Source: a virus
Lineage: Duplodnaviria; Caudoviricetes
Virus record (IMG/VR): IMGVR_UViG_3300050029_000197
Location: 1,531-65,530 of that record
Length of the DNA stretch: 64,000 nt
Reading direction: 5' to 3' (one strand)
Every line of letters starts with the position of its first letter. The first letter of the stretch is position 1. This document shows, one piece after another, positions 67 through 50,258 of this stretch. The translations under genes were made by a program, and so were the position numbers. Below the pieces are notes generated by a model, which did no database searches, was not told where the DNA came from, and saw only the letters and a list, made by a program, of their open reading frames with translations.

Positions 67-435
67 TCAGTCGTGGTGGTCATCGTCACCGACAAGCTCC
101 AAATCGACGTCGATCGGACGGACACGAACCGCGAGTTTCCAGACGATCGTTCGGCCGACCCGGTCGCCCGCGACGATTCCCGCTCGCTCGAGCCGCACCA
201 GGATCGGGTACACGTCGTGATTCCCCGCGAGGCGCCAACCCTCAACCGCACCTTCACGGTCGCGACACGTCGTGCACGGGGCGCCCGAGGACCAGCGGCC
301 CGGATGGCCGTCGACGAGGCAATGGCACGGGACCGTCCCGACCCGGCGCGCGACCTCGCGGGTTTCGGCCGGCTCGCGGACCGCCGCGACGATCTGGTCG
401 GTGAGCGCGAGCAACGCCTCCGAGGTGCGCCTCAT
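67..435 (-). CDS. hypothetical protein, possible winged-HTH with Cys-rich (Zn-binding) insert
   Basis: 122 aa ORF overlapping the upstream stop (ATGA); CHC...CTTC motif; C-terminal 'YPILVRLERAGIV...GRTIVW' resembles a wHTH wing. Confidence 0.5.
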   Translation of the reverse strand: MRRTSEALLALTDQIVAAVREPAETREVARRVGTVPCHCLVDGHPGRWSSGAPCTTCRDREGAVEGWRLAGNHDVYPILVRLERAGIVAGDRVGRTIVWKLAVRVRPIDVDLELVGDDDHHD

Positions 436-1340
436 GACGTGCCCAAGAACTCGGCGGCGATGAACTCGAGCGCCTGCGCCGGATTCGTCGCCTCACCGGC
501 AGCGAGCATCTTCTCGATCGCCTGCTCCACCACCGCGGCCGCCGAGGCGGGCATCGCGTCGACGAGCGGGACCGGGACCCAGTCCTCCGGAACGTCCGCG
601 ACCGGGCGCAGCTCTACCGGTTCGAGACCGGCGAGTTCGCGGTTCGCGACGTCGACAAGATGAGCGACGGTCGCACCCACGCTGCGGATGTCGCGCACCC
701 GGCCGATCGCGGCGACTGCCTTCGCGAGCGGCTCGAACTGCTCGAGGGGCGCGACGCCGATGAGGTCCGGGTTGCCGTCGATCTGCTTCGCGAGCTCCTT
801 GAACCCGTCGAACGCGGCGGGGAGGAACTCGAACGTCACGGTCCGCCACTCGAACGCCGCCGCCGGCGTGTGCAGCATGGTCGTGTCCGGTGCTGGGATC
901 GGGAGGAACTCGTCGGGGAGACCCGTCATGAGGAAATGCTCGGGGACGTCGATCATCCGCACCATCTGGCGGATCACGGCCGGGTCCGGTTCGCCGGCGA
1001 GTTCGTTGTGCGCGATCTGCTTCGCGACCAGCTCCGACCGGGACATCTCCTGGTAATCGACGATCATCGGGACGAGCTTGTGGCCCGCCTTCTTCGCCCC
1101 GCGGACCCGGTGGTGACCCGAGATGATCTCGACCCGTTTTCCGTCGTCGTGCGGTTTGCCGTACGGCAGCGACTCGAGCGCGCCCCGCTGACGGATGTTC
1201 TCGGCCAGACGGTCGAACTTCGCCGGCGTGAGCACCTGAGCATTGACATCCTGCTCGACGATGTCCTCGATCGGAACGAGCTCGACGTAGAGGTCGTCGC
1301 CGATCTGGAACCGTTCGCGGTCCGTCGTCGGCGCGGTCAT
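432..1340 (-). CDS. ParB/Sulfiredoxin-like N-terminal domain protein
   Basis: 'EQDVNAQVL...FDRLAENIRQRGALESLPY...EIISGHHRVRGA...QIAHN' ParB/Srx motif; start MTAPTT at 1340 overlaps the upstream stop. Confidence 0.85.
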   Translation of the reverse strand: MTAPTTDRERFQIGDDLYVELVPIEDIVEQDVNAQVLTPAKFDRLAENIRQRGALESLPYGKPHDDGKRVEIISGHHRVRGAKKAGHKLVPMIVDYQEMSRSELVAKQIAHNELAGEPDPAVIRQMVRMIDVPEHFLMTGLPDEFLPIPAPDTTMLHTPAAAFEWRTVTFEFLPAAFDGFKELAKQIDGNPDLIGVAPLEQFEPLAKAVAAIGRVRDIRSVGATVAHLVDVANRELAGLEPVELRPVADVPEDWVPVPLVDAMPASAAAVVEQAIEKMLAAGEATNPAQALEFIAAEFLGTS

Positions 1341-2089
1341 CGGGACTCCCGGCGGGCCTGGTCGGCGATCGCCTGCTCCACCCAGTCGACCAACGGCACG
1401 TCGCGCGCCTTCGCCGCCCGCTTCGCCTTGTCCCGGAGGTCCTCGCGCACCTTGAGGCTCCAGTACGGGACCGCGTCGCGTCGCACGCCCGGGCCCGTAC
1501 CGACGTGCCGGCCGATCCATCCCCGCACCGCCGCGCCGGAGCCCAACGAGCTCGGGAGCTGGGCCATCGCCTTGTCGTCCTTCAACAGCGACAGCGGGAT
1601 CGCGAGCGCGTCCCACAAGCCAATGCGACGCGAGTTGACCGCCATCTGCACGACCTCCGGGTACCGCAACAGCAGCAACGTCCGCGAGACGTGCGCCTGC
1701 GAACGTCGGGTGCGGGTCGCGACCTGGATTTGCGTCAGCCCCGAATCAACCAGGTCGCGGAACAGGCGCGCCTCGTCGAGCGGCGACATCTCCTGGCGGT
1801 CGAAGTTCTCCGCGGCCTGCGCCAACAGCCGGTTCTGCTCGGTCGCGCGCTGACGAAGGAAGCACGGAATCTCCGCCATGTCGATCAGCAGCGCCGCAGT
1901 GTGGCGACGGTGGCCGAACAGCACCTCGACGTCGTCGCCGTCCTCGGTCGGAACGACCGTGATCGCCTGCAACATGCCGTGCTCGAGCAGTGAAGCGGCG
2001 AGGTCCTCGATGCCGTCCATCGAGACGCGGACGTTGCGGCCCGGGCGGATCTTCTTCGGGTCCAGGTGAGTGAGCTGCGCCCGCTTCAC
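1337..2089 (-). CDS. ParB/RepB/Spo0J family protein
   Basis: 'NVR...IEDLAASLLEHGMLQAITV...GHRRHTAA...AENFDRQEMSPLDEA' followed by HTH 'TQIQVATRTRRSQAHVS'. Confidence 0.9.
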   Translation of the reverse strand: MKRAQLTHLDPKKIRPGRNVRVSMDGIEDLAASLLEHGMLQAITVVPTEDGDDVEVLFGHRRHTAALLIDMAEIPCFLRQRATEQNRLLAQAAENFDRQEMSPLDEARLFRDLVDSGLTQIQVATRTRRSQAHVSRTLLLLRYPEVVQMAVNSRRIGLWDALAIPLSLLKDDKAMAQLPSSLGSGAAVRGWIGRHVGTGPGVRRDAVPYWSLKVREDLRDKAKRAAKARDVPLVDWVEQAIADQARRESR

Positions 2090-2490
2090 CGGCTCTCACC
2101 CCGCGCTCGGTGAAGGTGCGCGTAGTACGCCTTGATCGCCCGGCCGCCCATGAGCAAGTTGCCGAACCCGGCCGTGGCGCGGTCCTCCTCGCTCTCGCCG
2201 CCCCAGAGTCCGAACTCGCGGCCCGCGCGCCCGGCGTCGCCGCACTCGTTGCTCACCGGACAGCGGCCACAGAACCGCAACCGCGCGTCCCATTCGCGCG
2301 CGGCGCGCATCTCGGGCCGCTCCCCCTCGAGCGCGAAGAACGGAGCAGGCCCCTCGCCTCGGCAGGCCGCGTCGGCTTTCCAGGCCATGCCCTCGAACAA
2401 GCGGCCGAACAGCTCCGCCAACGGCGAGGGATCGTCTTGCCTCTCGACCGGTTCGTCGTCGACGTCGGCCGGGTCGATCGTCGCCATCAC
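2086..2490 (-). CDS. WhiB family Fe-S transcriptional regulator
   Basis: 'WKADAAC...FF...CGRCPVSNEC...FGLWGGESE': four Cys plus the GLWGG motif. Confidence 0.92.
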   Translation of the reverse strand: MMATIDPADVDDEPVERQDDPSPLAELFGRLFEGMAWKADAACRGEGPAPFFALEGERPEMRAAREWDARLRFCGRCPVSNECGDAGRAGREFGLWGGESEEDRATAGFGNLLMGGRAIKAYYAHLHRARGESR

Positions 2491-2891
2491 GCCGCTTGCT
2501 CCGGGCGCAACAGACCGAGCTCGTGAGCGCGTGCTGGGTCGACGTCATGGATCCAGTGGTGCACCTTGGCGCAGACGAACAGCCCGCGTTCGGGATCGTG
2601 GACGCCGCGGTCGTGGTCCTCGGGGAACAGATGATGGGCATGGTGACCTTCGTGCGGCCACGGCGACGCACAGCCAAGAACGATCTCGGTGCCGTCGAGC
2701 ATGAACAAGGCCTCGCAATACCCGCCGCTGCGTCGGCGTAGCTCGGCACGGAACGCGTCAAGGGCGGGACGTTCGCGCTTCGCCTTCCGGCCCGGTCCCC
2801 GCCGCAACGCGGTGCGGGCGATCGCCCTGCGCGGCTTCCGCAACCAGGCCGCGATCTTGTCCGGATCTCGTTTGATCTCGGTGCGTTTCAT
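2487..2891 (-). CDS. HNH-like endonuclease
   Basis: 'RRSGGYCE...C...HHAHH...LFVCAKVHHWIH...AHELGLL' pattern of actinophage HNH proteins. Confidence 0.65.
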   Translation of the reverse strand: MKRTEIKRDPDKIAAWLRKPRRAIARTALRRGPGRKAKRERPALDAFRAELRRRSGGYCEALFMLDGTEIVLGCASPWPHEGHHAHHLFPEDHDRGVHDPERGLFVCAKVHHWIHDVDPARAHELGLLRPEQAA

Positions 2892-3190
2892 GTCTGGCGT
2901 CTCGCCCACGCCGACCAGGCGAGGAGCTGCTCACGATCGTCCGCGTCGAGCCCGGGCTGACGGTACGCGAGCGCCGAGCACAGCGAGTCGAGCGCGACGA
3001 GGGCGCGCAGTTCGATCTCGACGATGATCCGTTCCCCCTCACCGGTCTCGACCCGGAACGGTCCCCCCGCCGGCACGACCGGTACCGGAGGCACGCCGAG
3101 TATCCCGGCGACCATCTCCATCGGCGGCATGTCCGGCCGTCGGATCGGACCCCACCAGCCGTTCGCCTCGAGCCATGCCCGGATCCTCAC
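2888..3190 (-). CDS. hypothetical protein
   Basis: ORF with 4-bp overlaps to both neighbours (GTG at 3190). Confidence 0.5.
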   Translation of the reverse strand: MRIRAWLEANGWWGPIRRPDMPPMEMVAGILGVPPVPVVPAGGPFRVETGEGERIIVEIELRALVALDSLCSALAYRQPGLDADDREQLLAWSAWARRQT

Positions 3191-3408
3191 GCCGCGACCG
3201 CCAGCAGCGACAACAAGAACCCGGGCCGCATCTCGTATATCGCCGCGAGGCCGAACAGGTCGTCGACGTCGAAGTTGCGTTCGCCACGCTCCCATTGGCT
3301 CACAACCCCGCGCGAGTAGCCAAGCTGGGCCGACACGCCATCGGCGGTGAGTGCCCGTTCGCGTCGCAACTGGCGGAGCACCGCACCGATCCGCTGCTCG
3401 AACGTCAC
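3187..3408 (-). CDS. XRE/Cro-type HTH regulator
   Basis: 'IGAVLRQLRRERALTADGVSAQLGYSRGVVSQWERGER' HTH_3 pattern. Confidence 0.9.
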   Translation of the reverse strand: MTFEQRIGAVLRQLRRERALTADGVSAQLGYSRGVVSQWERGERNFDVDDLFGLAAIYEMRPGFLLSLLAVAA

Positions 3409-4895
3409 GCCGCCGTCTCCTTCTTCCGTCGTCGCCCGGTAGTGACGCCCGAGGTCGCGCGCCCGTAGCGGGCCTCGTCCGCGATCCACCAGGCGAGCGC
3501 GTCCGCCCAGGTGCCCGCCTCGAGCGGCGCCGCGTAGAAGAGCCGGAAGCAGCCCTTGCGTTTCGGGTCGGTACGCCGCTCGACGAGGTCCATGAGCCCC
3601 CGCTTCGACTTCGACTCCGGGAGCCGGGCCTCGTCGACCGTCAGGATCCGGGCCGCGGCCGCGACGTGAATCGACGTCTTCGGTGACGCCAGTAGCTCCA
3701 ACGTGCGGCGCTGGAGCGAGACCTTGAGGATCAGTCTGCTCAGACGAGATGCGTGCGCGGCGGAGAACGCCCAGGTGAGCAGGATCGCGTCGCGGAACTT
3801 CGTGACCCCGTTATGCGGGTGCACCATCGTGTCCGGCGAGAACCCGCCCGCGCAGGCGAGATAGCCGTCGACGACGACCGCGAAGTTCATCGACGTCGAC
3901 GCCGAGGCCGGCCGGTGCGTCCACAACTCTTTCAGGTAGGCGGCCTCGGGCGCGCTGATCGCAATGACGTCGATCGACGAGTCGGCGGTGATCTGGTGGT
4001 CGGATGGCATCGGCTCCCGGCGTGGCCGTTCGAGCTGACCAGCGGACCTGCCCCCCACCTTCACCCCGACGAGGTCGCGCACCTCGTCCGGCCGGTTCGA
4101 CAGGTAGTAGATGTAGCGACCGTTCCCGAGGTAGCGGGCGTAGACGACCTGGCGTTCGTCGAGTGCCGCGGCCTTGGTCTCGGTCATCACGACGAGAAGG
4201 CCGGGCGCGCCCTCGGCGCGGGTGAGGAGCTCGCGGACGCCTTCGACCGGGTCGAACATCGCGAACGTCGGCTCGTCCCACGTCACACGCGCGCCCGTCG
4301 CGAACATCTTCTCGTAGCCGTTTTTGATCGTCGGCGGGTTGAGGAGGATCAGCGCGTGCTCGTCGTCGAGCGCGTCGAACGTGTGCTCGAAGAGGCAGCG
4401 GGGCCGGAAGTCGATGCCGGCGAGCGACTTCGACAGCGCCTGCAGCGTCTCGGTGAACTCGGCGATGTGGCCGTTCTGGCCCGTCCGGAGCTCGGCCAGC
4501 ACGCCCGCCAGGTATTCGGATGGCGCTTTCTCGTACTGGTACTCGTTGCGGACCAACAAGAACCGCATCAGCAGCTCCGCGCAACGGGCTTCGACCGTCT
4601 CCCCCACCGTGACGGCCGGTTCCCCGTCGACCCGCACGTCCAGGTCGAGCGTCGAACGCGCCGCGGCGACGCCGACGAGTGCGGGCACGAGCATCACGTC
4701 CGACGCCTCGATCCCGGCTGCGGGCCATCCGAGCTCGCGTGCGAGGAGGCTCACCGCGAGCATCCCCGCCGCCGGCTCGACGAGGCGCGTGTAGCGCGCG
4801 CGGTCAACCGTGCTCAGGACCTCGCGCAGGAACGACCTCTCGGGGTTCGTGAGCGAGCCGAGCCAGAGCATCCAGGGCTGCACGTAGGCGGGCAT
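3405..4895 (-). CDS. atypical Dam-like adenine methyltransferase domain fused to a probable GNAT/Mom-like C-terminal domain
   Basis: Motif I-like 'RLVEPAAGMLAVS', 'IEASDV', motif IV variant 'LLNPPT...GYEKMF'; C-terminal half has 'NFAVVVDGYLACAGGF' and 'SRLSRLI', reminiscent of a GNAT fold (inference). Alternative start ATG at 4871. Confidence 0.6.
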   Translation of the reverse strand: MPAYVQPWMLWLGSLTNPERSFLREVLSTVDRARYTRLVEPAAGMLAVSLLARELGWPAAGIEASDVMLVPALVGVAAARSTLDLDVRVDGEPAVTVGETVEARCAELLMRFLLVRNEYQYEKAPSEYLAGVLAELRTGQNGHIAEFTETLQALSKSLAGIDFRPRCLFEHTFDALDDEHALILLNPPTIKNGYEKMFATGARVTWDEPTFAMFDPVEGVRELLTRAEGAPGLLVVMTETKAAALDERQVVYARYLGNGRYIYYLSNRPDEVRDLVGVKVGGRSAGQLERPRREPMPSDHQITADSSIDVIAISAPEAAYLKELWTHRPASASTSMNFAVVVDGYLACAGGFSPDTMVHPHNGVTKFRDAILLTWAFSAAHASRLSRLILKVSLQRRTLELLASPKTSIHVAAAARILTVDEARLPESKSKRGLMDLVERRTDPKRKGCFRLFYAAPLEAGTWADALAWWIADEARYGRATSGVTTGRRRKKETAA

Positions 4896-4899
4896 CTCG

Positions 4900-4971
4900 T
4901 CCGGGAACCTCGGATCGAACGAGGACTACGACACCCCAAGCGTCGCGTGCTGCCAGCTACACCATTCCCGG
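4900..4971 (-). tRNA. tRNA-Pro(UGG), CCA not encoded
   Basis: Full cloverleaf: CCGGGAA/TTCCCGG acceptor, GTGT/GCAC D stem, CGACG-CTTGGGG-TGTCG anticodon arm, CCTCG-TTCGATC-CGAGG T arm; Pro identity elements C1:G72, A73 and G37. Confidence 0.93.
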
Positions 4972-4983
4972 TGCAGTCAACCT

Positions 4984-5001
4984 AAACCACACGCGTGTGG
5001 T
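4984..5001 (-). promoter_or_regulatory. class L (virion-gene) promoter motif upstream of tRNA-Pro
   Basis: Palindrome ACCACACGCGTGTGGT followed by TAGGTT 7 nt before the tRNA 5' end; same core recurs before structural genes. Confidence 0.7.
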
Positions 5002-5061
5002 GCGCAACGACAGTCGCGAACTACCTCGCAGCGCGCGCACGAATCGCGCGGACGGCGCGCA

Positions 5062-5499
5062 TCAGTCGACGTCGGGATGTGCGACGCGAACGAGGCTCTC
5101 GGCCACCCGCGTCAACGCGTTCAGCGCGTTGCCGAGGTGGGTCAGGTGCGATTCGGTCAGCCGGTCCAACGCGATCCCCCATAGCGCGTGCCCAACAGCA
5201 ACGACGATCTCGCGCTCGGCATCATGCAGCCGCTCGAGGAGGTCGTCATCGCCTGTCTCCCCGGCATCGCCGTAGGCCATCAGCGTGACGTACCGCACCT
5301 CATGCGCCGCACTGACCAAGGTCCCCGCCTTATCGGCCCGGTAGTGGCGGCTGTCGTGGTCGCCGATCCGACAGACCATGTCCGCGACGTCGTAGAGCGG
5401 GCTCACGATCGACCGTTCCGCGTAGTTCTCGGCCTCGTCAAGCTCGTGGAGCTGCTCACGGAGGTAGGTGCGGGCAGCGTCGAGCGGTGAAGTGGTCAT
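5062..5499 (-). CDS. hypothetical protein
   Basis: ORF MTTSPLD..., overlapping the upstream stop. Confidence 0.55.
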   Translation of the reverse strand: MTTSPLDAARTYLREQLHELDEAENYAERSIVSPLYDVADMVCRIGDHDSRHYRADKAGTLVSAAHEVRYVTLMAYGDAGETGDDDLLERLHDAEREIVVAVGHALWGIALDRLTESHLTHLGNALNALTRVAESLVRVAHPDVD

Positions 5500-5759
5500 G
5501 GGAGCAACTCCTCTTCGGTGATCTCGTAGCTCCGATAGGTCAGGCCAGGAACGACGCCGGCCAGATCGCGCGCGATGATCGAGTCGGCATACACCTCCAG
5601 CTCCCACTCTGCCGTGTGGTTCTTGGAGTGCATCTTCTCGATCGCCGCGAGCGCACCGTCGAACGAGCGGCACGCGGCCAGAGTGCGCGGACCGTCGTAT
5701 TCGTTCTCGCGCACCATGAACACACGCTCGCGCTCGTCGTCCGGGTCCCAGCCGCTCAT
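5496..5759 (-). CDS. hypothetical protein
   Basis: 87 aa ORF, translationally coupled on both sides. Confidence 0.55.
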   Translation of the reverse strand: MSGWDPDDERERVFMVRENEYDGPRTLAACRSFDGALAAIEKMHSKNHTAEWELEVYADSIIARDLAGVVPGLTYRSYEITEEELLP

Positions 5760-6133
5760 GGCCGCATCGGTCCGATCGCTATGACGGTCTCGTGGGTTTC
5801 CGGGTCATGCCACGTCTCGAGCTTCGTGCGCTGGTCGACCTTGATCGCTGTCGCGTCCGAGATCCGCATGACCATCCGGCCCTGCTCGTCGAGCTCACCC
5901 TTGTCGACGAGCAGCATCCCGATCGTCATTTTGGCGTCGCGCCGCTCGCGCGCATAGCGATCGTGGTCCTCGACGAACGCGAGGAGTGCCCTCGCGTCCA
6001 CCGCCACCTTCATCGGTCGATCCAGTACGGCCTCAGGCCAGTCAGCCGTCGCGGTTCGCCAGCGGTCTTCGAGAAGCCTGCGCGCCTCCTGGGCGATTGC
6101 CTCGCTCGTTGCTCGGTCGTCGGCGTCGCTCAT
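5756..6133 (-). CDS. hypothetical protein
   Basis: ORF MSDADDRAT..., coupled to neighbours. Confidence 0.55.
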   Translation of the reverse strand: MSDADDRATSEAIAQEARRLLEDRWRTATADWPEAVLDRPMKVAVDARALLAFVEDHDRYARERRDAKMTIGMLLVDKGELDEQGRMVMRISDATAIKVDQRTKLETWHDPETHETVIAIGPMRP

Positions 6134-6570
6134 CAGAAGAGTCTCGTCTCCGCCGGCGTCTCGCGCTCGGGCATCGGCCGGTAGGTGTGCTCGCAGGACA
6201 GCTCGCGCACGTCGATCCCCCACCGCTCGTGGAGCCACTGGGCGGCGAACTCGCGGTGGCAGAGATCCTTGCGGACGTCCTCGAAGCAGAGGCAGACGAT
6301 GGTTTGCCCTGGGTACTTCTCCGCGACGCCGAGGAGTTGCGCCTCGATCGCGTCCGCGAGCCCGTCGAGCCGCGCGATGTATCGCGCGGCGAACTCGTCC
6401 GGGTCGGCGATCTTGAGCAGGCCGTACGGGGCCAGCTTCGAGCCCGACTCACAGGCAATGTTGCGGATGAGCCCGACCGTCGTTCGCAGCGGCACCCCGT
6501 ACTCGTTCTTGAATGCTCGGATCGAACACGTTGCGATTTTCACGTCGTGAATGTCCATAGGTCCCATCAT
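6133..6570 (-). CDS. DUF488-like protein
   Basis: 'KLAPYG...EFAARYIARLD...IVCLCFED...CHREFAAQWL' matches the DUF488 LxC(F/Y)E...CHR signature. Confidence 0.75.
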   Translation of the reverse strand: MMGPMDIHDVKIATCSIRAFKNEYGVPLRTTVGLIRNIACESGSKLAPYGLLKIADPDEFAARYIARLDGLADAIEAQLLGVAEKYPGQTIVCLCFEDVRKDLCHREFAAQWLHERWGIDVRELSCEHTYRPMPERETPAETRLF

Positions 6571-6571
6571 G

Positions 6572-7372
6572 TCAAGCTGCTGCCCCAACCCGCTCGGCGG
6601 CGAGGATCGCGCGGACCCGGTTGCGGTGCGTGTGATCGGCGTCGCCGACGACGAACGCTTCGAGCAGGCCGAGCAGCTCGGACCGGCCGACACGTTTCGC
6701 CTTGCGGGCGTCGTCGATCAGCTCGGCCACCAAGAATGCGGAGGCGTCGAACATCCCGTCTGCGTTCTGTTCGGCCGCCAGCTTGTCGCACGCCCGGCGC
6801 GCCGAGTACCAGTCGAGCCCGCCCGACAGGATCGCCTGCGCGGCGAGCACCTGACGGTTCGTGTCCAGCCCGCGGAGCATGTCCGCGAATCCGACCGTCA
6901 ACGTGCCCGCCGAGACCAAGGCCCGGATCTCGGGCGCGAGGTCGAGGAGGGCGGTGCGGCGGTCGATCGTCGCCATGCTCACTCCGACCGCGTCGGCGAG
7001 CTGCTCGCGCGAGACCCCGGCGTCGAGACGCTTGCGGTAGGCGGCGCCCTCCTCGATCGGGTCCAGATCCACCCGGCCCACGTTCTCGGCCAGCATCACG
7101 GCCTGAGCCGCGTCGTCGTCGAGTGGCCGCACGAACGCCTCGATCTCGACCAGGCCGGCGAGCCGACAGGCTCGGACGCGCCGCTCCCCCGCCACCAGTT
7201 CGTATCTTGATACGGCATTCCGGATTCCCGATTCTCGAACCGTCGGCGGCTGCACCAGGCCGATCTCGCGGATGCTCTTCGCCAACTTGTCGAGCTCATC
7301 GTCGCGGAACGTCTGACGGTCATTGTCGCCCGCGACGATCGCGTCGAGGCGAACCGTGCGCAGCGCGCTCAC
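6572..7372 (-). CDS. ParB/RepB/Spo0J family protein
   Basis: 'NDRQTF...LDKLAKSIREIGLVQPPTVR...YELVAGERRVRA...LAENVGRVDLDPIEE' plus HTH. Confidence 0.92.
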   Translation of the reverse strand: MSALRTVRLDAIVAGDNDRQTFRDDELDKLAKSIREIGLVQPPTVRESGIRNAVSRYELVAGERRVRACRLAGLVEIEAFVRPLDDDAAQAVMLAENVGRVDLDPIEEGAAYRKRLDAGVSREQLADAVGVSMATIDRRTALLDLAPEIRALVSAGTLTVGFADMLRGLDTNRQVLAAQAILSGGLDWYSARRACDKLAAEQNADGMFDASAFLVAELIDDARKAKRVGRSELLGLLEAFVVGDADHTHRNRVRAILAAERVGAAA

Positions 7373-7599
7373 TCCCCCACCACCGCGACCGTGCGCTGCC
7401 GGAGCTGCGCTGCTGCTCGGTCGGCTTCGTGGATCGCTCCCCGATCGCCCGAGGACACGAACCCACCGCCCAGATCCCGCACCTCCCAGGTGCCACGCCC
7501 CTCCGTGTCGAGCGAGACGTTCACGACGTAGCCGATATGCGCGCCGTCGTCGACGATCCCCTGCCACCGGGGTCGGGTCGTCGCCTGGAGCACGATCAC
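7369..7599 (-). CDS. hypothetical protein
   Basis: Coupled short ORF (GTG at 7599). Confidence 0.5.
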   Translation of the reverse strand: MIVLQATTRPRWQGIVDDGAHIGYVVNVSLDTEGRGTWEVRDLGGGFVSSGDRGAIHEADRAAAQLRQRTVAVVGE

Positions 7600-27825: not shown

Positions 27826-27845
27826 AAACCACACGCATGTCGTTT
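27826..27845 (-). promoter_or_regulatory. class L promoter motif
   Basis: AAACGACATGCGTGTGGTTTGCT, 6 nt before GTG 27816. Confidence 0.75.
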
Positions 27846-32385: not shown

Positions 32386-33369
32386 CTATTGCACGAGCCC
32401 GGAGAAGAAGACGCCGAGGTCGGGGGCGACGACGCGCATGTCGTACGCGGTGCGGGCCTCGAACACGTCGGAGTGCTCCTGCTCCTCACGGAACCGTTCC
32501 ACCGCCGCGGGCGATGATGCGCCCTCGCCGAGGAGGCCGGTCCATGCGAACACGTACCCGGCGGACGGCACTTCGAGCCCGGGCTCTGGCGCGGCGTACA
32601 CGAGCAGCGCGTTCTTCGGGCCGACGATGAAGTCCGACGTGTACGCCTGGCCCTCTTCGGATGTCGTGTTGATCGCGGTCGCGACCCGGACCGAGTCGAC
32701 CGCGAAGTATTCGGCGGCCTTGCCGAGGTCCATCGACAGGGCACCCTGGGTGTATTTCACGCGGTCGATGAAGTCCGGGTGCTGGATCAGGGCCTGCTCG
32801 ACGTCCGAACCGAGGATGAGGCAGTTCGCGCCGTATCCGGTGAGCTTCGTCATCCCGCGCGACCGGCTGCGGATCGTCTTCGACGGCAACGACGTCCCGA
32901 GGTTCCAGAACACGTCGTGCGTCGCGTCGGTCAACGTCGCGTGGCCGGCGATGTCGGTCGTCCAGACGCCGGTCTTCATGAACGAGGACACGAACCGCTT
33001 GTCCCGGTGGATCATGTGCTGACCCATGATGAGCCGGATCTTGGCGCGTTCGCCGTCGTAGCCGGGCGACCAGTTCGCCCGTTCCGAGTCGTCGATCGCC
33101 GCGGACAGGCCCTCTTCGGTGCACGCGTAGCTGGCGGTCGTGAGGTCGTGACCGGTGCGCGGCGAACGGCCTCGCAGCGGGCGGGGGCCGACGTCGTCGC
33201 GGTAGAACGCGTCGCGCGGGTACACCCAGTAGATGTCGGTCTTGTGATTGACCGGCACCGTCGGGAACGCGCCCGGTGCGACGAACGCCGAGTCCTGTTG
33301 CATGTACGCAACAGAGATGGTCGTCAGCAGCGCATCGATGTGGCCCTGGTTGGCTGTCGGCTGGGGCAT
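32386..33369 (-). CDS. major capsid protein
   Basis: 'HIDALLTTISVAYMQ...FVA..AFPTVPV...PSAGYVFAWTG...DMRVVAPDLGVFF'. Confidence 0.92.
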   Translation of the reverse strand: MPQPTANQGHIDALLTTISVAYMQQDSAFVAPGAFPTVPVNHKTDIYWVYPRDAFYRDDVGPRPLRGRSPRTGHDLTTASYACTEEGLSAAIDDSERANWSPGYDGERAKIRLIMGQHMIHRDKRFVSSFMKTGVWTTDIAGHATLTDATHDVFWNLGTSLPSKTIRSRSRGMTKLTGYGANCLILGSDVEQALIQHPDFIDRVKYTQGALSMDLGKAAEYFAVDSVRVATAINTTSEEGQAYTSDFIVGPKNALLVYAAPEPGLEVPSAGYVFAWTGLLGEGASSPAAVERFREEQEHSDVFEARTAYDMRVVAPDLGVFFSGLVQ

Positions 33370-34584: not shown

Positions 34585-34604
34585 AAACCACACGCGTGTC
34601 GTTT
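34585..34604 (-). promoter_or_regulatory. class L promoter motif
   Basis: AAACGACACGCGTGTGGTTTGAT shortly before ATG 34573. Confidence 0.75.
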
Positions 34605-34634: not shown

Positions 34635-36167
34635 TCAGGCTGGGGGAGTGGCGTCGTCGTAGAGCGTGAACCCTTCGAGCGACAGGCCCTGGATCTCCTT
34701 GCGGAGCACCTTCTCCCAACCGAAGTCGTTCCACACGACGCCCATCCACACCGTCCCGGCCGGCACCTCGACTGATTTGCGGACACCGTCGACGGTCGCG
34801 AGCTCGCATGTGACCGGGTACGGCCAGGTGACGAGGTCGACCCATTCGCCGGCGTCGGTGCCGGGGAAGTGCTGGAGGTTGACGGTCCGATCCCCGCAAC
34901 GGACGTAGTCCCACTGCGCCTCTTGGAGCGAGTCCTCGGTGATCCATTCCTTGTGCGTGTCGAGCCGGCCGGGCACGTACATGGGTGCGAACGTGTATCG
35001 CTTCGCCGCGTCCGATTTGCCGACCGCCATCTGCACATACGACGGGCCAAGGTCCTGGTCGTCCATTGGTTCGGCCCACCCGCCGATGAGTGGGAAGTGT
35101 GCGACGACCCCGCCGACCGCGACACAGAACGAGTCGACGATCCACTCGGCCGACTCGGGCAACGGCAACGCTTGCAGCGCGGTCGGGTCGGTCGCGGTCG
35201 CGAGCGTCACGTGCGGGACGAACCCGTGCGTGAAGTCGTCGACGGGCAACCCTTGCGCGTTGAGCTGCTCGATCAGATCGGCACGCAGGTCGGACAGGTC
35301 GATCGAGTCGATGAGCGCGACCGCCGTGTACCAGGGGCCGTCACTGTCCGCATCACCGTCGTCTTCACCTTGGGCGAGGGGCGCGTCGTTGTCGTCATCG
35401 TCGTCGTCGGTGTCGGGGATGAAGATGCCGACACCGGACACCTCCGCACCGAACGGTGAGATCGAACATGCTGCGCGCATCGCCGACGCGACAAGCGTCA
35501 ACGCTTGCGACACCCGGCCCGCGGGGATCCGCACGTACGCGAGGGTGACGTGCATGTCCTCCGCGGCCTGGCAGAGCACACCATCGCTGTCGGGAAGTTC
35601 GAGCGCCATCGCGATGTCGGATGGGAGGCCGAACCCGATCATGCACGGCACGACCTCGTCGTCAGGAATGGAACCGACTGCGTCCATGAACTGGGAGCGC
35701 GCATCCGCCGGGGACAGGTCCGCCTTCTGCACGCCGACGAGCTTCTCCGCGACGTCGGCGTACAGGCGGGTCGCCTTCGCGATGTCGTACGCGACGAGCA
35801 CCCCATGCGACACCGCGCGCGGTTCGGCCTTCGCGAGCGGCGCCGGCAACCGCCGGTCCGGGTACAGGGCCCGGTACGCCTTCGCGATCCTGGGCGACGC
35901 CTCCGCGCGCGCGACGTCGTCCATGCGGGCCAGTGCACCCATCGCCGCGTGGAGCCGACCCTGAGAAATGACGCCGTCGGCGGTCTTCCACAGCGGATGC
36001 CGCCACGTGGACCGGTCGGCCCGATCGCCGATGAGGGCGAACGCGTCGGCGGGCAGGTCCGCGGCCTTGGCCGTCTGCGACGGGATCTTCGCCTTCGGCT
36101 TCTTCTTGCCCGTACCGCCCGAGAGGAGCTCGTCGACGTGACCTTCGTTCGCGGTGGGGTCGGGCAT
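34635..36167 (-). CDS. XkdF-like capsid maturation protease fused to a 2H phosphoesterase (2'-5' RNA ligase-like) domain
   Basis: Two HxT motifs (MHVTLAY, PHVTLAT); C-terminal 'KRYTFAPMYVP..LDTHKEW...GTVWMGV...WEKV..EIQGLSLEG'. Confidence 0.8.
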   Translation of the reverse strand: MPDPTANEGHVDELLSGGTGKKKPKAKIPSQTAKAADLPADAFALIGDRADRSTWRHPLWKTADGVISQGRLHAAMGALARMDDVARAEASPRIAKAYRALYPDRRLPAPLAKAEPRAVSHGVLVAYDIAKATRLYADVAEKLVGVQKADLSPADARSQFMDAVGSIPDDEVVPCMIGFGLPSDIAMALELPDSDGVLCQAAEDMHVTLAYVRIPAGRVSQALTLVASAMRAACSISPFGAEVSGVGIFIPDTDDDDDDNDAPLAQGEDDGDADSDGPWYTAVALIDSIDLSDLRADLIEQLNAQGLPVDDFTHGFVPHVTLATATDPTALQALPLPESAEWIVDSFCVAVGGVVAHFPLIGGWAEPMDDQDLGPSYVQMAVGKSDAAKRYTFAPMYVPGRLDTHKEWITEDSLQEAQWDYVRCGDRTVNLQHFPGTDAGEWVDLVTWPYPVTCELATVDGVRKSVEVPAGTVWMGVVWNDFGWEKVLRKEIQGLSLEGFTLYDDATPPA

Positions 36168-36258
36168 GAGGTGGACTGTACGCCGCCACGGTCGTTTCGG
36201 CTGGGTTGGGTATAGGGAGACTGTTTTCAGTGTCTCACCGGACTGCGATGCTGAGGTC

Positions 36259-36711
36259 GTGAGCACCGACGGACCCGACCTTCCAGTCATTGAGATATGC
36301 GTCGTCTATCGAGCCTTCGCCGCGGACCGTGAGCTCCTCTACGTGGGCGTCACATCACAGTTCATGCAACGTATGCACAAGCATCGCGCGCGCAGTCCTT
36401 GGTGGCGGCTGGCGAGCAGCGTTACCGCCGAAGTGTTTATGACCCGGGCGGAGGGAGTCGCGGCGGAGGCACGAGCTATCGCGGACGAACGTCCTCGGTT
36501 CAACCTGGAAGCCGCACAGCGGCGAAGCGCAGCGGGTCTGATCGCCGGCCGCAAACGAAATATCCTGCTGCGTACGCATTGTCGGAGGGGTCACTCATAC
36601 GACGAGGCGAACACGATGATACGGAAGAGCAAGGGAAGGACCTATCGTGTGTGCAGAAGTTGTGCGCGTGAACTCGGCCGGCTGAGATACGCCCGGCTCA
36701 CTCTTCGGTAG
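36259..36711 (+). CDS. GIY-YIG endonuclease with C-terminal Zn-binding domain (homing-endonuclease-like)
   Basis: 'VVYRAF...LLYVGVT...RM..H...W...E..AI..E.P.FN' plus 'THCRRGHSYDEANT...CRSC'; opposite strand inside the head operon. Confidence 0.85.
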   Translation: MSTDGPDLPVIEICVVYRAFAADRELLYVGVTSQFMQRMHKHRARSPWWRLASSVTAEVFMTRAEGVAAEARAIADERPRFNLEAAQRRSAAGLIAGRKRNILLRTHCRRGHSYDEANTMIRKSKGRTYRVCRSCARELGRLRYARLTLR

Positions 36712-37608: not shown

Positions 37609-38496
37609 CTACAGACCGACCGCCTGGATGACGTCCTCCGCGGCCGCGACGATCCCCTCCTCGGCATCGCGCACGATGCGGGCCACCTCGGCGCGGAACC
37701 GGTCGAGCGGACTCGGCCCGGGCGTCGGTGACGGAGCGGGCTGCGGTGCGGGCGCGGGTGGCGTCACCGGTCCAGGCGCGGGTGTCGGCGTCACCGTCGC
37801 GTGCGGGAGCGCCTGCAAGTCCGCGAGCAGCGCCGCGAACGCGACGTCGCCCATGTCGTCCTTCGTGACGATCGCCCACGCCTCTTCGACGCACGCCTGT
37901 TCCCATGTCCAGTCCGCCTCCTGGAGCGCGCCCCACGTGACGACGGTGCCGTACCCGTTCGCGCCCGTGGGCTGCTGTTGGCCCACCTTGAGAATCGCGT
38001 GCCCCTCGGCCGGGTCCGGCTGCTCGCCGTTCGCGACCGTCCACGGTTGTCCGGCGTTGAACAGCGCGTTGGCGTCGTCGGTCAGGTTCACGCCGAGGAT
38101 CACCCCGCGGCCCAACTGGCCCATCACCGCGTCGACGGTGCCGAGCTCGACCGGGGCGAACCCTTCGATCTCCCCGTTGTGGAACAGGTACAGCAGGAAG
38201 TCGGCGAGGTTCACGCCGACGTCCTGGCCGTGGTCGTACGTCTGGTACAAGCCAACCGTCTCCGCGGTCGTCGGGGTCGCGCCCGCGAGCATCCGGTCAT
38301 GCTCGTACGCGGCGACGCCGCAGTCGCCGAAAACATCGTTGCCGAGCATGCCGAAATCGGTGATGCCCTTCGAGACGTCGATCGGATATGCGGGCACAGG
38401 AGCCGCGGCGTACTCGTGCAGCCAGCGGATCGCGTACCGCTCCCCGACCGGCTTGATCGGGAGCCGTCCGCGGAGTCCTGCGATGCGTTCGGTCAT
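37609..38496 (-). CDS. papain-like cysteine peptidase domain protein
   Basis: 'GMLGND..GDCGVAA' (Cys), 'GHAILKVG' (His), 'VVTWG'; Pro-rich tail. Confidence 0.6.
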   Translation of the reverse strand: MTERIAGLRGRLPIKPVGERYAIRWLHEYAAAPVPAYPIDVSKGITDFGMLGNDVFGDCGVAAYEHDRMLAGATPTTAETVGLYQTYDHGQDVGVNLADFLLYLFHNGEIEGFAPVELGTVDAVMGQLGRGVILGVNLTDDANALFNAGQPWTVANGEQPDPAEGHAILKVGQQQPTGANGYGTVVTWGALQEADWTWEQACVEEAWAIVTKDDMGDVAFAALLADLQALPHATVTPTPAPGPVTPPAPAPQPAPSPTPGPSPLDRFRAEVARIVRDAEEGIVAAAEDVIQAVGL

Positions 38497-40016
38497 GGTG
38501 CTCCTCCGGTCGTGACGTTCTGCGCGTTCGCGTCGTCGGGCGCGTTCGGATCCTGGCCGCCCTGGTTCATCTTCCCGAGCTCGGCGAGCTGCGCGTTGAC
38601 CCGGTTCGTTACCTCGGTCTCGACGAGCAGGTCCTGCGCGCCTTTCTCCTCCGCGCTCATGTGCGGCGCGTCGAGCTGATCGAGCAGCCAGTCCGACAGT
38701 TGCGGATCAGGGAACACGTCAACGCCCGCCTGCGACAGCTTCACGATCGCGTCGAACAGCTTCGTGATGTCAACCTCTTGCACCGTGTCATGCTCGAGCG
38801 TCGGTGTCAGCTCGACCGGCCAGCCGTTCAACTCGACCAGTTCGCGGTAGCCGTTGTCGGTGACTTCGGTGCCGACCATCGTGAGGTTCGCGTCGAGCGA
38901 CGCGGAGAACAGTTCGACGCGGGTGGTGCCCATCGAGAAGCCGAGCGAGCCGACACCTTGCGCGCCGAGGAGGAGGAAGTCGGCGAGACCGTTCAACAAG
39001 ATTCGATGATCGAGCCGTTCAATCACCTTCGTCGTGTCGAACTGGCGTTGGCCGCCGGTGGTGAGGAGCTCGAACTTGAAACGGTTGTTGCCTTTCTCGT
39101 TCTCGTCGTACGGCAACATCATCCCGTCCGCCTCGTTACGACGGACGTTCTTCACCGCCTCCCGCAACGTGTTCGCGAGCGCCTTGTAACTCTCGGCGGC
39201 GTCAGGCGCGAGGTATTCGGGGGGGAGCCACATGACCGGCAGACCGACGAGGTCGCGTTCAATGCCGACCGCTTCGATGTCCTCAATACGCCGTTTCTGC
39301 AGCCATGGCCTCCACGCGCCCCGCAACATGGAACGGCCAAGCGGGTTGTCTTTGAGTGCGCTGGTTCGGAAGTGGAGCAGTTTCGCCATTGGGATCGACA
39401 CCGCGGCGTGGGTGAGCGTCCGCTGATTCGCTCCGACGAGCCGTTCGTTCGACGCGGTGCGCTGGTAGTCCCACCGCCAGATGGTGTCCTGCGCGCGGAT
39501 CGGGAGGTTCTCCCACCCGATCTTGCCGTCGTCGTACTTGCTCTTCGGCTGCCCGAACGGTTGCGCGTCGGTCGGCGGGCCGCCCTTGGGACCGAGGCGC
39601 CGCTTGTAGACCTTCTCGAACAGTCCGAAGCCGAACTGGCGGGTGGTGCCGATCGACGACTGCGTGTCAGGCCACGTGTCGAGCATGTCGCCGCGGCATG
39701 AGTCACAGTGGTCGGCGATCTCAGCCGCGAGGCGCGAGTCGTCCGCCGGCGTCGTCCGCCATGACACTTGCCGTTCGAGAAGCTCGATCGCCAACAGCAT
39801 CGCCGAGGTGGTCGCGTCGTTGTCGCCCATCTCGCGGAACACGCGCCCGGCGAGCGGCCACGAAAGCTGCTGGAGGAACTCTTCTTGGATGAACCCGCCG
39901 AACTGGCGGAGACCGGTCGAACCGATCTCGATGCCGATCGAGCCGGGGTCGGTGAGGATGTCGTCGAGTTGCACGCGCAGCGGGGAGGCTGCACCGTTGC
40001 TGTTGACGACGGTCAC
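38493..40016 (-). CDS. portal protein (DUF935-like)
   Basis: 'EIGSTGL..FGGFIQEEFL..L...EMGDNDA...NPLGRSMLRGAW..W..K..IE.IEAVGIERDL.GLPV'. Confidence 0.92.
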   Translation of the reverse strand: MTVVNSNGAASPLRVQLDDILTDPGSIGIEIGSTGLRQFGGFIQEEFLQQLSWPLAGRVFREMGDNDATTSAMLLAIELLERQVSWRTTPADDSRLAAEIADHCDSCRGDMLDTWPDTQSSIGTTRQFGFGLFEKVYKRRLGPKGGPPTDAQPFGQPKSKYDDGKIGWENLPIRAQDTIWRWDYQRTASNERLVGANQRTLTHAAVSIPMAKLLHFRTSALKDNPLGRSMLRGAWRPWLQKRRIEDIEAVGIERDLVGLPVMWLPPEYLAPDAAESYKALANTLREAVKNVRRNEADGMMLPYDENEKGNNRFKFELLTTGGQRQFDTTKVIERLDHRILLNGLADFLLLGAQGVGSLGFSMGTTRVELFSASLDANLTMVGTEVTDNGYRELVELNGWPVELTPTLEHDTVQEVDITKLFDAIVKLSQAGVDVFPDPQLSDWLLDQLDAPHMSAEEKGAQDLLVETEVTNRVNAQLAELGKMNQGGQDPNAPDDANAQNVTTGGAP

Positions 40017-50257: not shown

Positions 50258-50258
50258 C

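What the first reader, a model, noticed from the sequence alone, without database searches (positions are those of the whole stretch)
432..7372. Candidate tRNA-dependent DNA hypermodification system: tRNA-Pro + MTase/GNAT(Mom)-like fusion + ParB + DUF488
Seen: an intact tRNA-Pro(UGG) (4900-4971) ends 4 nt before the first ATG of a ~490-aa protein. Its N-terminal half carries Dam-like SAM-binding motifs but NPPT in place of the catalytic (D/N)PPY, and its C-terminal half is a separate domain. A divergent ParB/Srx protein (432-1340) lies in the same coupled gene run, and a DUF488-like gene lies just upstream. The tRNA is preceded by the same motif that precedes portal, scaffold, tail and lysis-region genes. 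Established: phage Mu Mom is a late-expressed GNAT-fold DNA adenine-modifying enzyme reported to use aminoacyl-tRNA (Gly) as donor, and ParB/Srx domains often accompany phage base-modification clusters. Inference: the C-terminal domain is GNAT/Mom-like, and the co-transcribed tRNA supplies an aminoacyl (prolyl) donor for a late, anti-restriction base modification, possibly combined with SAM chemistry. I know of no characterised proline-derived DNA base.
Basis: partly seen in the sequence, partly recalled or inferred. Interest (0 to 1): 0.9.

Follow-up and report, generated by a model that had tools for sequence, protein, structure and literature searches.

The report
Phage DNA-modification kit with private tRNA
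This actinobacterial phage carries a widespread but untested gene kit, made of an odd proline-type tRNA, a Dam-like/acyltransferase fusion enzyme, a ParB-like protein and a DUF488 protein next to the packaging genes, that probably uses charged tRNA to attach an amino acid to adenines in the phage's own DNA.

Summary
ARAGORN places a tRNA-Pro(UGG) at 4899-4971(-), next to the ATG of a 496-aa protein (3405-4895). That protein is Pfam DAM-like-phage1 plus GNAT-phage-like, with NPPTI where Dam has DPPY.

The fusion gene belongs to a conserved module: DUF488-like, tRNA-like, Dam-like/GNAT, ParB/Srx-like, then small terminase. A covariance model of the linked tRNAs gave 113 of 114 hits just upstream of the fusion gene on its strand. 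These lay in 91 of 99 sources, and in 78 of 80 loci of a second collection.

Of 64 distinct tRNA-likes, 60 share an unusual CCG...CGG acceptor stem, whatever the anticodon (Arg, Lys, Gly or Pro type). Only 11 of 64 have a decoding-competent anticodon loop. They look like private partner RNAs, not codon supplements.

Phage Mu Mom, which uses Gly-tRNA, is the top structural match of the GNAT domain (Z 10.4) but is tied with ordinary GNATs. There is no sequence-level membership in the Mom family.

The amino-acid-to-DNA chemistry is inference, about 0.5 likely. Proline applies to this lineage only. I found no paper on the module. Earlier notes of this scan describe the same kit on other genomes.

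The parts
6133..6693 (-). DUF488-like protein (family F3). The true start probably lies downstream of the GTG at 6693. It ends in ...AETRLF.
   Evidence: Pfam DUF488-N3a at E 0.0078, 16.9 bits, below the cut-off of 27. It shares the invariant C136, C145-H146-R147 and the near-invariant E138 with 20 positional homologues. Family F3 occurs in 28 of 33 representative loci, just upstream of the tRNA-like gene. ValentiniPuff gp112, at the same position, is PF04343 at 56.1 bits.
4986..5003 (-). Palindromic motif ACCACACGCGTGTGGTTT, 14 nt upstream of the tRNA. It is followed by TAGGTT, a possible -10 element (my reading).
   Evidence: It shares the core ACGCGTGTGGTTT with sites before a tail gene, a Neck1 gene, the gene before the major head gene and the unnamed gene 49084-50139. 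A variant lies before the portal gene.
4899..4971 (-). Private tRNA of Pro(UGG) type: C1-G72, C2-G71, G3-C70, A73, no encoded CCA.
   Evidence: ARAGORN. Model R1 gives 53.4 bits, E 6e-10. The MFE fold is a cloverleaf. Rfam RF00005 does not detect it.
3405..4895 (-). Dam-like (residues 1 to about 290) plus GNAT-like (about 296-480) fusion enzyme with a C-terminal helix.
   Evidence: PF22555 and PF22559. phrog_7858, unknown function, 6.2e-50. AF2 model pLDDT 93.6, pTM 0.86. Foldseek matches E. coli Dam and GNATs including Mom. VIA-align puts Mom first at Z 10.4.
432..1340 (-). ParB/Srx-like partner (family F2), with EQDxNA and SGHHR motifs.
   Evidence: ParB_N at 8.1e-06 (26.2 bits against 26.3). 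phrog_7405 at 3.2e-50. F2 occurs in 31 of 33 representative loci, usually overlapping the stop codon of the fusion gene. The complex prediction gave only weak support.
1337..3489 (-). Lineage-specific insertions between the fusion gene and its ParB-like partner: an HTH regulator (3187-3489), an unknown ORF (2888-3295), an HNH endonuclease (2487-2909), WhiB (2086-2490) and a canonical ParB-HTH (1337-2089).
   Evidence: Pfam and PHROGs. These genes are absent from this position in the other loci.

Best explanation
The window holds one copy of a conserved phage module that sits just before the packaging genes. Its order is DUF488-like protein, one or more private tRNA-like RNAs, a Dam-like/GNAT fusion enzyme and a ParB/Srx-like protein.

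Proposed mechanism (inferred):
1. The private tRNA is transcribed with the late genes.
2. A host aminoacyl-tRNA synthetase charges it, ProRS in this phage.
3. The GNAT domain recognises it through the invariant C1-G72/C2-G71/G3-C70 acceptor end.
4. The Dam-like domain binds phage dsDNA and flips a target adenine into the altered NPPx(Y/I) pocket.
5. The aminoacyl group passes from the tRNA 3' end to adenine N6, as Mom does with glycine.
6. The ParB-like protein acts as a DNA-bound activator or loader.
7. The DUF488-like protein acts on DNA or on the RNA end.

Shown here: the module, the tRNA linkage, the shared acceptor stem, the loss of decoding features and the folds. Inferred: charging, the donor role, the DNA target, the adduct and any protective role.
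For: Module. DUF488-like (28 of 33 loci), tRNA-like, fusion gene, ParB-like (31 of 33 loci), then TerS and TerL families. In this genome TerS lies at G000:C1:3-689 (phrog_6299, 5.6e-20). The cultured phages FP_Brigit and ValentiniPuff show the same order.

tRNA linkage.
- ARAGORN finds a same-strand upstream tRNA in 64 of 80 viral loci and 14 of 16 prophage loci, and no other tRNA anywhere in those loci.
- Model R1 puts 113 of 114 hits (E<=0.01) in the same-strand zone within 2051 nt upstream. That zone is 7.8% of the sequence searched. 91 of 99 sources have a hit.
- In a second collection 78 of 80 loci have a hit, 78 hits in all, every one upstream and on the + strand.
- The linkage spans 10 protein clusters at 50% identity and GC content from 0.35 to 0.72.

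Partner-RNA signature.
- 60 of 64 distinct sequences have CCG...CGG acceptor ends, against 0 of 45 tRNAs in a control phage.
- Pairs 1:72 and 2:71 are C-G in 31 of 31 sequences and 3:70 is G-C in 29 of 31, while pairs 4-7 covary freely.
- Only 11 of 64 have a 7-nt anticodon loop with T33 and a purine at 37. In the control, 44 of 45 have T33 and 44 of 45 a purine at 37.
- Ten loops are not 7 nt long. Three carry a GNRA-capped stem in place of the anticodon.
- N73 tracks the anticodon class: Arg 19/19 T, Gly 18/18 T, Lys 12/12 A, Pro 3/3 A.
- Some phages carry 3-4 tandem Gly-type copies.

Folds. The N-domain matches E. coli Dam (4rtq_A, E 7.9e-4). The C-domain is a GNAT with Mom 8bv8_B as top VIA match (Z 10.4, rmsd 3.6, 148 residues aligned).

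Conserved sites. Rossmann ligand-site residues are kept: G44 in 78/80 and D66 in 79/80. Basic GNAT residues are kept: R384 in 78/80 and R432 in 80/80. Inteins sit right after NPPxYK in at least 8 of the 11 long forms examined, which marks that site as strongly conserved.

Precedents. Mom transfers glycine from Gly-tRNA to N6 of dA in dsDNA (PMC13219725). A phage ParB activates a DNA-modifying dioxygenase on dsDNA (PMC13229309, abstract).
Against: - No modification, charging or binding was measured.
- The GNAT domain is not a Mom-family member. The Pfam scan gives no Mom hit and hhalign against Mu Mom gives probability 0.4%.
- Mom's structural lead is within 1 Z unit of many acetyl-CoA GNATs.
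- Closely related enzymes carry different tRNA types, for example L009 (Lys, A73) and L041 (6-nt loop, T73) within one 70% cluster. This is odd if the amino acid matters.
- Six-nt and tetraloop-capped anticodon arms may not be chargeable by synthetases that read the anticodon.
- The conserved SAM-type pocket, and a SAM synthetase gene near the module in 8 of 33 loci, fit ordinary or added methyl chemistry.
- A few loci keep only a 5'-deleted tRNA remnant (L014, L020, L034, L128).
- Rfam does not recognise the window's tRNA.
- Proline is a secondary amine, so a Mom-type rearrangement would give a different kind of product (my own reasoning).
Confidence: 0.5

Rival explanations
1. The tRNA-like RNA is the target, not the donor. 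The Dam-like/GNAT enzyme methylates or acylates the RNA, for example at its 3' end or its aminoacyl group as GNAT toxins do. The modified RNA then acts in packaging, regulation or anti-defence.
For: The invariant acceptor end would fit a substrate as well as a donor. GNATs that act on tRNA exist: TacT and TmcA are cited in PMC13219725, and NAT10/TmcA chains appear among the Foldseek matches. Decoding features are dispensable.
Against: The N-domain's nearest solved fold is the DNA enzyme Dam, with its DNA complexes. The module is tied to a ParB-like protein and to terminase genes. Tandem copies and class-specific N73 suggest charged, consumable RNAs.
Confidence: 0.15
2. The enzyme is a SAM-dependent DNA adenine methyltransferase, or a methyl-plus-acyl-CoA enzyme. 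The neighbouring tRNA matters only as a late-expressed codon supplement or moron at a hot spot before the packaging genes.
For: Rossmann motif I and II residues are kept. The family profile matches the SAM-binding stretch of glycine N-methyltransferase (E 0.0029). A SAM synthetase gene lies nearby in 8 of 33 loci. The window's own tRNA-Pro has a canonical anticodon loop.
Against: Motif IV has an inserted residue and lacks the aromatic residue in the window (NPPTI; Y in 54 of 80 family members). 53 of 64 linked tRNA-likes cannot be ordinary decoders, and 60 of 64 share an acceptor stem seen in 0 of 45 control tRNAs. No other tRNA occurs in the loci.
Confidence: 0.15
3. The tRNA is mainly a cis-acting 5' leader. 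Its 3' processing creates a nearly leaderless mRNA and so sets translation of the enzyme. This reading is compatible with the best explanation.
For: The tRNA ends 0-3 nt before the start codon in three separate lineages: the window, L005 and the L062 group. None of these encodes CCA.
Against: In other lineages the spacing runs from 21 to 2051 nt, with ORFs in between in some. In ValentiniPuff the record's ends fall between the tRNA-like gene and the enzyme gene. A leader role does not explain the invariant acceptor stem.
Confidence: 0.1

Closest known systems
Bacteriophage Mu Mom (PDB 8bv8; Silva et al. 2026, PMC13219725)
   Same: A phage GNAT-fold enzyme. It is the top structural match of the C-domain (Z 10.4). 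It acts late on dsDNA adenine N6 and uses aminoacyl-tRNA as acyl donor, as reported in the paper's abstract, structure section and discussion.
   Different: There is no sequence-level relation. Mom is a stand-alone dimer with an HTH-like insert and uses host tRNA-Gly. Here the GNAT is fused to a Dam-like domain and travels with its own tRNA-like gene of varying type, a ParB-like protein and a DUF488-like protein. The main text of the Mom paper has no occurrence of 'fused', 'fusion', 'ParB' or 'encoded tRNA'.
Dam-type N6-adenine DNA methyltransferases (E. coli Dam, PDB 4rtq/2g1p)
   Same: The N-domain fold matches (Foldseek E 7.9e-4 to 3e-3, target TM about 0.5). The motif I glycine, the motif II aspartate and the NPP of motif IV are conserved.
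   Different: Motif IV is NPP-x-(Y/I), not (D/N)PPY. The second motif I glycine is replaced by F or L. The domain is fused to a GNAT.
ParB-dependent phage thymine dioxygenases (O'Toole et al. 2026, PMC13229309)
   Same: A phage DNA-modifying enzyme encoded next to a ParB-like protein that lacks an obvious DNA-binding domain and activates it on dsDNA (abstract read).
   Different: The enzyme class and chemistry differ. Binding of the window's pair received only weak support.
Non-proteinogenic tRNA-Gly of Staphylococcus used by FemXAB (recalled, not checked in any call)
   Same: Dedicated tRNAs with altered loops feed a GNAT-fold aminoacyl-transferase instead of the ribosome.
   Different: They are host-encoded and serve cell-wall synthesis. 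The acceptor stem signature and the DNA target proposed here are different.

Membership tests
Pfam PF22555 DAM-like-phage1 plus PF22559 GNAT-phage-like fusion | Both profile HMMs matched above their gathering scores, in N-to-C order. | tested here: met
   148.1 and 92.7 bits against cut-offs of 27. All 4 word-search homologues carry the same two families.
Mom family (Mu Mom) | Sequence or profile membership. | tested here: not met
   The Pfam scan at E<=0.01 lists only PF22555 and PF22559. hhalign of the 80-sequence C-domain profile against Mu Mom gives probability 0.39% and E 0.15.
Mom family (Mu Mom) | GNAT fold similar to the Mom crystal structure. | tested here: met
   8bv8_B has Z 10.4, rmsd 3.6 and 148 of 202 residues aligned, ranking first of 48161 chains, but it is tied within 1 Z unit with generic GNATs. 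Foldseek gives E 1.9e-3.
Mom family (Mu Mom) | The HTH-like insertion and the essential residues R111, S124, D149 and R151 (PMC13219725). | not testable with these tools
   No residue-level superposition is returned. The family does have invariant R384, R432, H327 and E427, but their equivalence to Mom residues is unknown.
Mom family (Mu Mom) | Aminoacyl-tRNA as donor and dsDNA adenine as acceptor. | not testable with these tools
   Only indirect evidence exists: the conserved linked tRNA-like genes.
Dam-type N6-adenine methyltransferase | Catalytic motif IV (D/N/S)PP(Y/F/W). | tested here: not met
   The window reads NPPTI. In the family, N is present in 50/80, P in 72/80 and P in 78/80, then one extra residue, then Y in 54/80.
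Dam-type N6-adenine methyltransferase | Rossmann SAM-site motifs I and II. | tested here: inconclusive
   G44 is present in 78/80 and D66 in 79/80, but the second glycine of motif I is F or L. The profile matches motif I of glycine N-methyltransferase at E 0.0029.
Canonical tRNA-Pro | Cloverleaf with a canonical 7-nt anticodon loop. | tested here: met
   ARAGORN. The loop CTTGGGG has T33 and G37.
Canonical tRNA-Pro | Rfam RF00005 gathering score. | tested here: not met
   It is not reported. The tool finds 37 of 45 control tRNAs.
ParB/Srx N-terminal domain (PF02195) | Profile match and the GxxR-type box II. | tested here: inconclusive
   26.2 bits against a cut-off of 26.3. The SGHHR and EQDxNA motifs are invariant in 20 of 20 partner proteins.
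DUF488 (PF04343 / PF22751) | Profile match and the C...CHR motif. | tested here: inconclusive
   The window protein scores 16.9 bits against 27. The motif is present. The positional homologue ValentiniPuff gp112 scores 56.1 bits against 22.2.

The most novel reading that the evidence does not exclude
Phages of several bacterial phyla encode private, non-decoding tRNAs. Host synthetases charge them, and a Dam-like/GNAT fusion enzyme recognises them through a fixed CCG/CGG acceptor stem. The enzyme then writes different amino acids (proline here; lysine, arginine or glycine elsewhere) onto adenine N6 of phage DNA before packaging. ParB-like and DUF488-like helpers take part. This would be a family of aminoacyl-DNA marks whose chemistry is set by swapping the tRNA.
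Probability: 0.4. Interest if true: 0.9.

Novelty: new variant of a known kind. Interest (0 to 1): 0.8.

Why it matters
Mom is so far the only enzyme shown to move an amino acid from tRNA onto DNA, and it uses a host tRNA. This module would extend that chemistry in three ways. It has a different architecture. It spans many phage lineages of Actinobacteria, Firmicutes-type gut phages and others. It may use several different amino acids.

It would also give a function to a class of odd phage tRNA genes that annotation misses or labels as codon supplements. Two cultured phages carry the module, Microbacterium phage ValentiniPuff and Faecalibacterium phage FP_Brigit, so the claim can be tested directly by nucleoside mass spectrometry.

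Tried and rejected
Searches that found nothing.
- A single-protein scan of viral contigs.
The 10-sequence alignment A2 worked.
- blastn of the tRNA against phages, which gave one weak hit to a tRNA-Gln.
- A metagenome scan with the four closest proteins, which found no relative. The second scan, with A2, returned only relatives of 33% identity or less.

Ideas rejected.
- A suspected triple fusion with ParB in Streptomyces prophages (872-aa ORFs). The long ORFs carry only ParB_N and lie in another frame.
- The 670-792-aa forms as an extra enzymatic domain. They are intein insertions.
- An attP or integration-site remnant. The tRNA-like gene lies inside the packaging-proximal module in phage and prophage records alike, and I saw no integrase family among the conserved neighbours.

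Inconclusive tests.
- Columns that separate the tRNA types in the GNAT domain. There are 18, for example residue 374 (R/M/W/T) and residue 421 (E/Q/M/D). tRNA type is confounded with phylogeny, so I draw nothing from this.
- Complex prediction of the fusion protein with the ParB-like protein gave weak support. The score was 0.50 (three runs: 0.50, 0.51, 0.50) and the best of 3 controls was 0.00. The runs agree in at least 68% of contacts and the partner pLDDT is at least 65. The mark was reached by 58 of 80 solved complexes and 2 of 110 mismatched pairs. At 0.60 or under, only 7 of the 80 solved complexes reached it, as did both mismatches that passed. My own alignments were used.

Literature. 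Nine searches found no paper on this module. The paper that I recall as defining the DUF488 clades (NAR Genom Bioinform 2023) is not held. What I say about it is recalled. Supplements were closed. Those of PMC13219725, which cover the homologue network and the Pfam annotation of contigs, might mention Dam-like fusions.

Full report
CONTEXT. The window is bases 1531-65530 of a 65,530-bp linear virus record that is 78% complete by CheckV. It has 67.8% G+C, and nearly all genes lie on the - strand. A WhiB gene points to an actinobacterial host. The portal (38493-40016), major head (32386-33369), tail and Neck1 genes lie upstream on the - strand. The small terminase lies beyond the window's left edge, at G000:C1:3-689 (phrog_6299, 5.6e-20). 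The finding therefore sits directly before the packaging genes if the genome is read as a circle.

THE OBSERVATION. ARAGORN calls tRNA-Pro(tgg) at 4899-4971(-). Read directly, it has a 7-bp acceptor stem, a D-loop with GG, the anticodon loop CTTGGGG and the T-loop GTTCGAT. The discriminator is A and no CCA is encoded. CGAG then precedes the ATG at 4895.

Rfam's tRNA model does not report this tRNA in three different searches. It does find the window's tRNA-Met at 56.9 bits, and it finds 37 of 45 tRNAs in a control actinophage. I cannot explain the miss. My own model scores the tRNA at 53.4 bits.

The 496-aa protein is PF22555 (DAM-like-phage1) plus PF22559 (GNAT-phage-like). PHROGs files it under an unknown-function family. 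The ParB-like (432-1340) and DUF488-like (6133-6693) calls are weak by Pfam alone, but family comparison confirms them.

The motif before the tRNA shares a 13-nt core with four sites. Two precede genes with a PHROG name (a tail protein and a Neck1/tail-completion protein). One precedes the gene just before the major head gene. One precedes an unnamed gene. A palindromic variant lies before the portal gene.

THE PROTEIN. The AF2 model is confident (pLDDT 93.6, pTM 0.86). Foldseek aligns the N-half to E. coli Dam and its DNA complexes (E 7.9e-4 to 3e-3), and also to the rRNA methyltransferase AviRa (E 6.4e-5). It aligns the C-half to GNATs, including Mom at rank 9.

Folded alone (pLDDT 93.8), the C-domain was compared with 48,161 chains. 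Its best match is Mom 8bv8_B (Z 10.4, rmsd 3.6, 148 residues aligned). Generic GNATs follow at Z 10.2 to 9.4, so the lead is not decisive. Profile comparison with Mu Mom finds nothing (probability 0.39%).

Across 80 family members these positions are conserved:
- G44 (78/80) and D66 (79/80) of the Rossmann ligand site;
- N186 (50/80), P187 (72/80) and P188 (78/80), followed by one extra residue and then Y (54/80; I in the window);
- in the GNAT half, H327, R384, E427, K429 and R432 (80/80).

Eleven of the 150 listed representatives are 670-792 aa long. Of these 11, eight show an intein N-junction (a Cys right after NPPxY or NPPxYK) and seven show the C-junction (HN followed by S or T). This marks motif IV as a strongly conserved site. 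That reading is an inference from how inteins are usually placed.

THE MODULE. The full-library search gives 546 relatives at E<=1e-3. I clustered the ORFs of 33 representative loci. The conserved order is DUF488-like (28 of 33 loci), tRNA-like, fusion gene, ParB-like (31 of 33 loci, usually overlapping the fusion gene's stop codon), TerS, then TerL.

The window is an expanded version. Three small ORFs lie between the DUF488-like gene and the tRNA. Five genes (HTH, an unknown, HNH, WhiB and a canonical ParB) lie between the fusion gene and its ParB-like partner.

In ValentiniPuff the module spans the ends of the record. gp112 is a DUF488 (56.1 bits). An unannotated tRNA-like element lies at L102 3355-3429 (66.8 bits). 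Then come gp1 (the fusion gene), gp2 (ParB) and the terminase. FP_Brigit has an unannotated tRNA-Lys 162 nt before gp21.

THE tRNA LINKAGE. ARAGORN finds one or more same-strand upstream tRNAs in 64 of 80 viral loci and in 14 of 16 prophage loci. It finds no tRNA anywhere else in those loci.

I built a covariance model from 31 of these tRNAs. It gave the following:
- 114 hits at E<=0.01 in 99 sources (1.165 Mb, both strands);
- 113 of them upstream of the fusion gene on its strand, 0-2051 nt away (median 162), a zone that makes up 7.8% of the sequence searched;
- the one exception is the window's tRNA-Met.

Ninety-one of 99 sources have a hit. Of the 8 without, six have at most 456 nt of upstream sequence (L002, L014, L020, L044, L058, L076), L034 keeps a 5'-deleted remnant, and L082 has a weak hit of 21.9 bits.

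The model also found elements that ARAGORN had missed, in L031, L037, L040, L045, L046, L071, L096 and L099.

A second collection gave 78 of 80 loci with a hit. There were 78 hits in all, every one upstream and on the + strand.

Many loci are near-identical, so these counts are not independent events. The 80 viral proteins plus the window fall into 10 clusters at 50% identity. Nine of the 10 have an ARAGORN tRNA in at least one member.

WHAT KIND OF tRNA. Of 64 distinct linked sequences, 60 begin with CCG and close with CGG. Pairs 1:72 and 2:71 are C-G in 31 of 31 sequences and 3:70 is G-C in 29 of 31. Pairs 4-7 change freely with compensation. In the control phage Cece, 0 of 45 tRNAs begin with CCG.

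Anticodon loops:
- 11 of 64 are canonical (7 nt, T33, purine at 37);
- 15 lack T33;
- 15 have a pyrimidine at 37;
- 13 have both defects;
- 10 are not 7 nt long. In three of these (L087, L095, L100) a stem capped by GTAA replaces the anticodon.

In the control, 44 of 45 have T33 and 44 of 45 have a purine at 37.

The discriminator base follows the anticodon class without exception: Arg 19/19 T, Gly 18/18 T, Lys 12/12 A, Pro 3/3 A. One clade carries 3-4 tandem Gly-type copies with reduced D-loops and T-loops.

I read this as follows. The RNAs keep what a synthetase and an acceptor-end-binding enzyme would need, and they lose what the ribosome needs. The synthetase identity rules behind this reading (U73 with C35/C36 for Gly, A73 for Lys, A73 with G72 and G35/G36 for Pro) are recalled, not tested.

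The window's own tRNA is one of the 11 with a canonical loop, so it could also decode.

MECHANISM AND RIVALS. Mom shows that a GNAT can move glycine from Gly-tRNA to N6 of adenine in dsDNA, probably reading only the acceptor end (PMC13219725; abstract, results section 13 and discussion read). A phage ParB activates a DNA dioxygenase on dsDNA (PMC13229309; abstract read). ParB-fold fusions to DUF488-HTH and to methyltransferases exist (10.1101/2025.10.10.680097; passages read).

The simplest reading of the module is a Mom-like transfer. The Dam-like domain presents the adenine and the private tRNA brings the amino acid. I put this at about 0.5.

Points against this reading:
- no sequence membership in the Mom family;
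- the tie with acetyl-CoA GNATs;
- the preserved SAM-type pocket, and SAM synthetase genes near the module in 8 of 33 loci;
- changes of tRNA type between close enzymes;
- anticodon arms that some synthetases may not accept.

The rivals are listed separately: the RNA as target, ordinary methylation with an unrelated tRNA, and the tRNA as a cis leader.

The 0-3 nt spacing in three lineages, together with the missing CCA, fits an added leader role here. The 21-2051 nt spacings elsewhere show that this role is not the general function.

NOVELTY. The two Pfam families exist but carry no function. Nine literature searches found no description of the module. The main text of the Mom paper has no occurrence of 'fused', 'fusion', 'ParB' or 'encoded tRNA'.

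Earlier notes of this scan describe the same four-part kit on other genomes, with Gly-, Lys-, Arg- and Pro-type tRNAs. I saw those notes after my own searches had given the same picture. They are not independent evidence.

What this window adds:
- an actinophage, Pro-type, expanded copy of the module;
- the tRNA abutting the start codon;
- the controls and counts above, the acceptor-stem and N73 statistics, the intein placement and the DUF488 tail motif.

I class the finding as a new variant of a known kind. Mom-type tRNA-dependent DNA modification is the known kind.

Noticed in passing
Proteins P0010, P0012, P0013, P0023, P0034, P0041, P0043, P0049, P0059, P0138, P0145 (relatives; not in the window): The 670-792-aa forms of the fusion enzyme carry an intein. 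Of these 11, eight show a Cys right after NPPxY(K) and seven show HN followed by S/T before GYEKFF. P0013 has a weak LAGLIDADG hit.
   Followed up: partly
window 6133-6150 (C-terminus of the DUF488-like protein) and 20 homologues in alignment A5: By my reading of alignment A5, after a variable linker 17 of 21 DUF488-like proteins end in Q-x-x-(L/M/A/V/F)-(F/W/M), for example QLSLF, QTSLF and QMSLF. The window has ETRLF. This resembles the bacterial beta-clamp-binding motif (recalled) and would place the protein on replicating DNA.
   Followed up: no
window about 50143-50160, 49043-49060, 34587-34604, 27828-27845 (- strand), 40028-40045, 4986-5003: A repeated motif, about AAACGACAYGCGTGTGGTTTG, lies 12-25 nt before the start codons of four genes. 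Two have a PHROG name (a tail protein and a Neck1 protein). One lies just before the major head gene. One, at 49084-50139, matched no family. Palindromic variants lie before the portal gene and the tRNA-Pro. It may be a late promoter or a regulator site.
   Followed up: partly
window 50183-50258 (+): A tRNA-Met(cat) lies on the strand opposite to nearly all genes, next to one copy of the late motif. Rfam scores it 56.9 bits.
   Followed up: no
window 34635-36290 (-): A 551-aa protein between the portal and head genes combines a 2'-5' RNA ligase/LigT-like 2H phosphoesterase domain (PF13563, 7.7e-09) with an XkdF-type head protease domain (PF14550, 9.6e-09). An RNA-end enzyme in a head protein is unusual and might relate to tRNA-end chemistry.
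   Followed up: no
window 432-1340, 1337-2089, 6572-7567 (-): Three ParB-fold genes lie within 7.2 kb. Two are canonical ParB_N plus HTH_ParB proteins. The third is the module's Srx-like partner.
   Followed up: partly
L102 3355-3429 (ValentiniPuff record 62354-62428) and L001 6762-6838 (FP_Brigit): Both cultured phages carry module-linked tRNA-like genes that no feature in the fetched records' tables covers. The ValentiniPuff copy has a 6-nt anticodon loop.
   Followed up: yes
L031 3001-4212 and 7 other representative loci (family 15): A complete SAM synthetase gene lies about 1.9-3 kb upstream of the module in 8 of 33 representative loci. FP_Brigit gp17 is annotated the same way. This hints that SAM is used nearby.
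   Followed up: partly
L048-L061 and L060, upstream of the fusion gene: Arrays of 3-4 tandem Gly-type tRNA-likes (anticodons TCC, CCC or ACC; U73) have shrunken D-loops and non-TTCG T-loops. In most of these loci an ordinary-looking tRNA-Trp stands beside them.
   Followed up: partly
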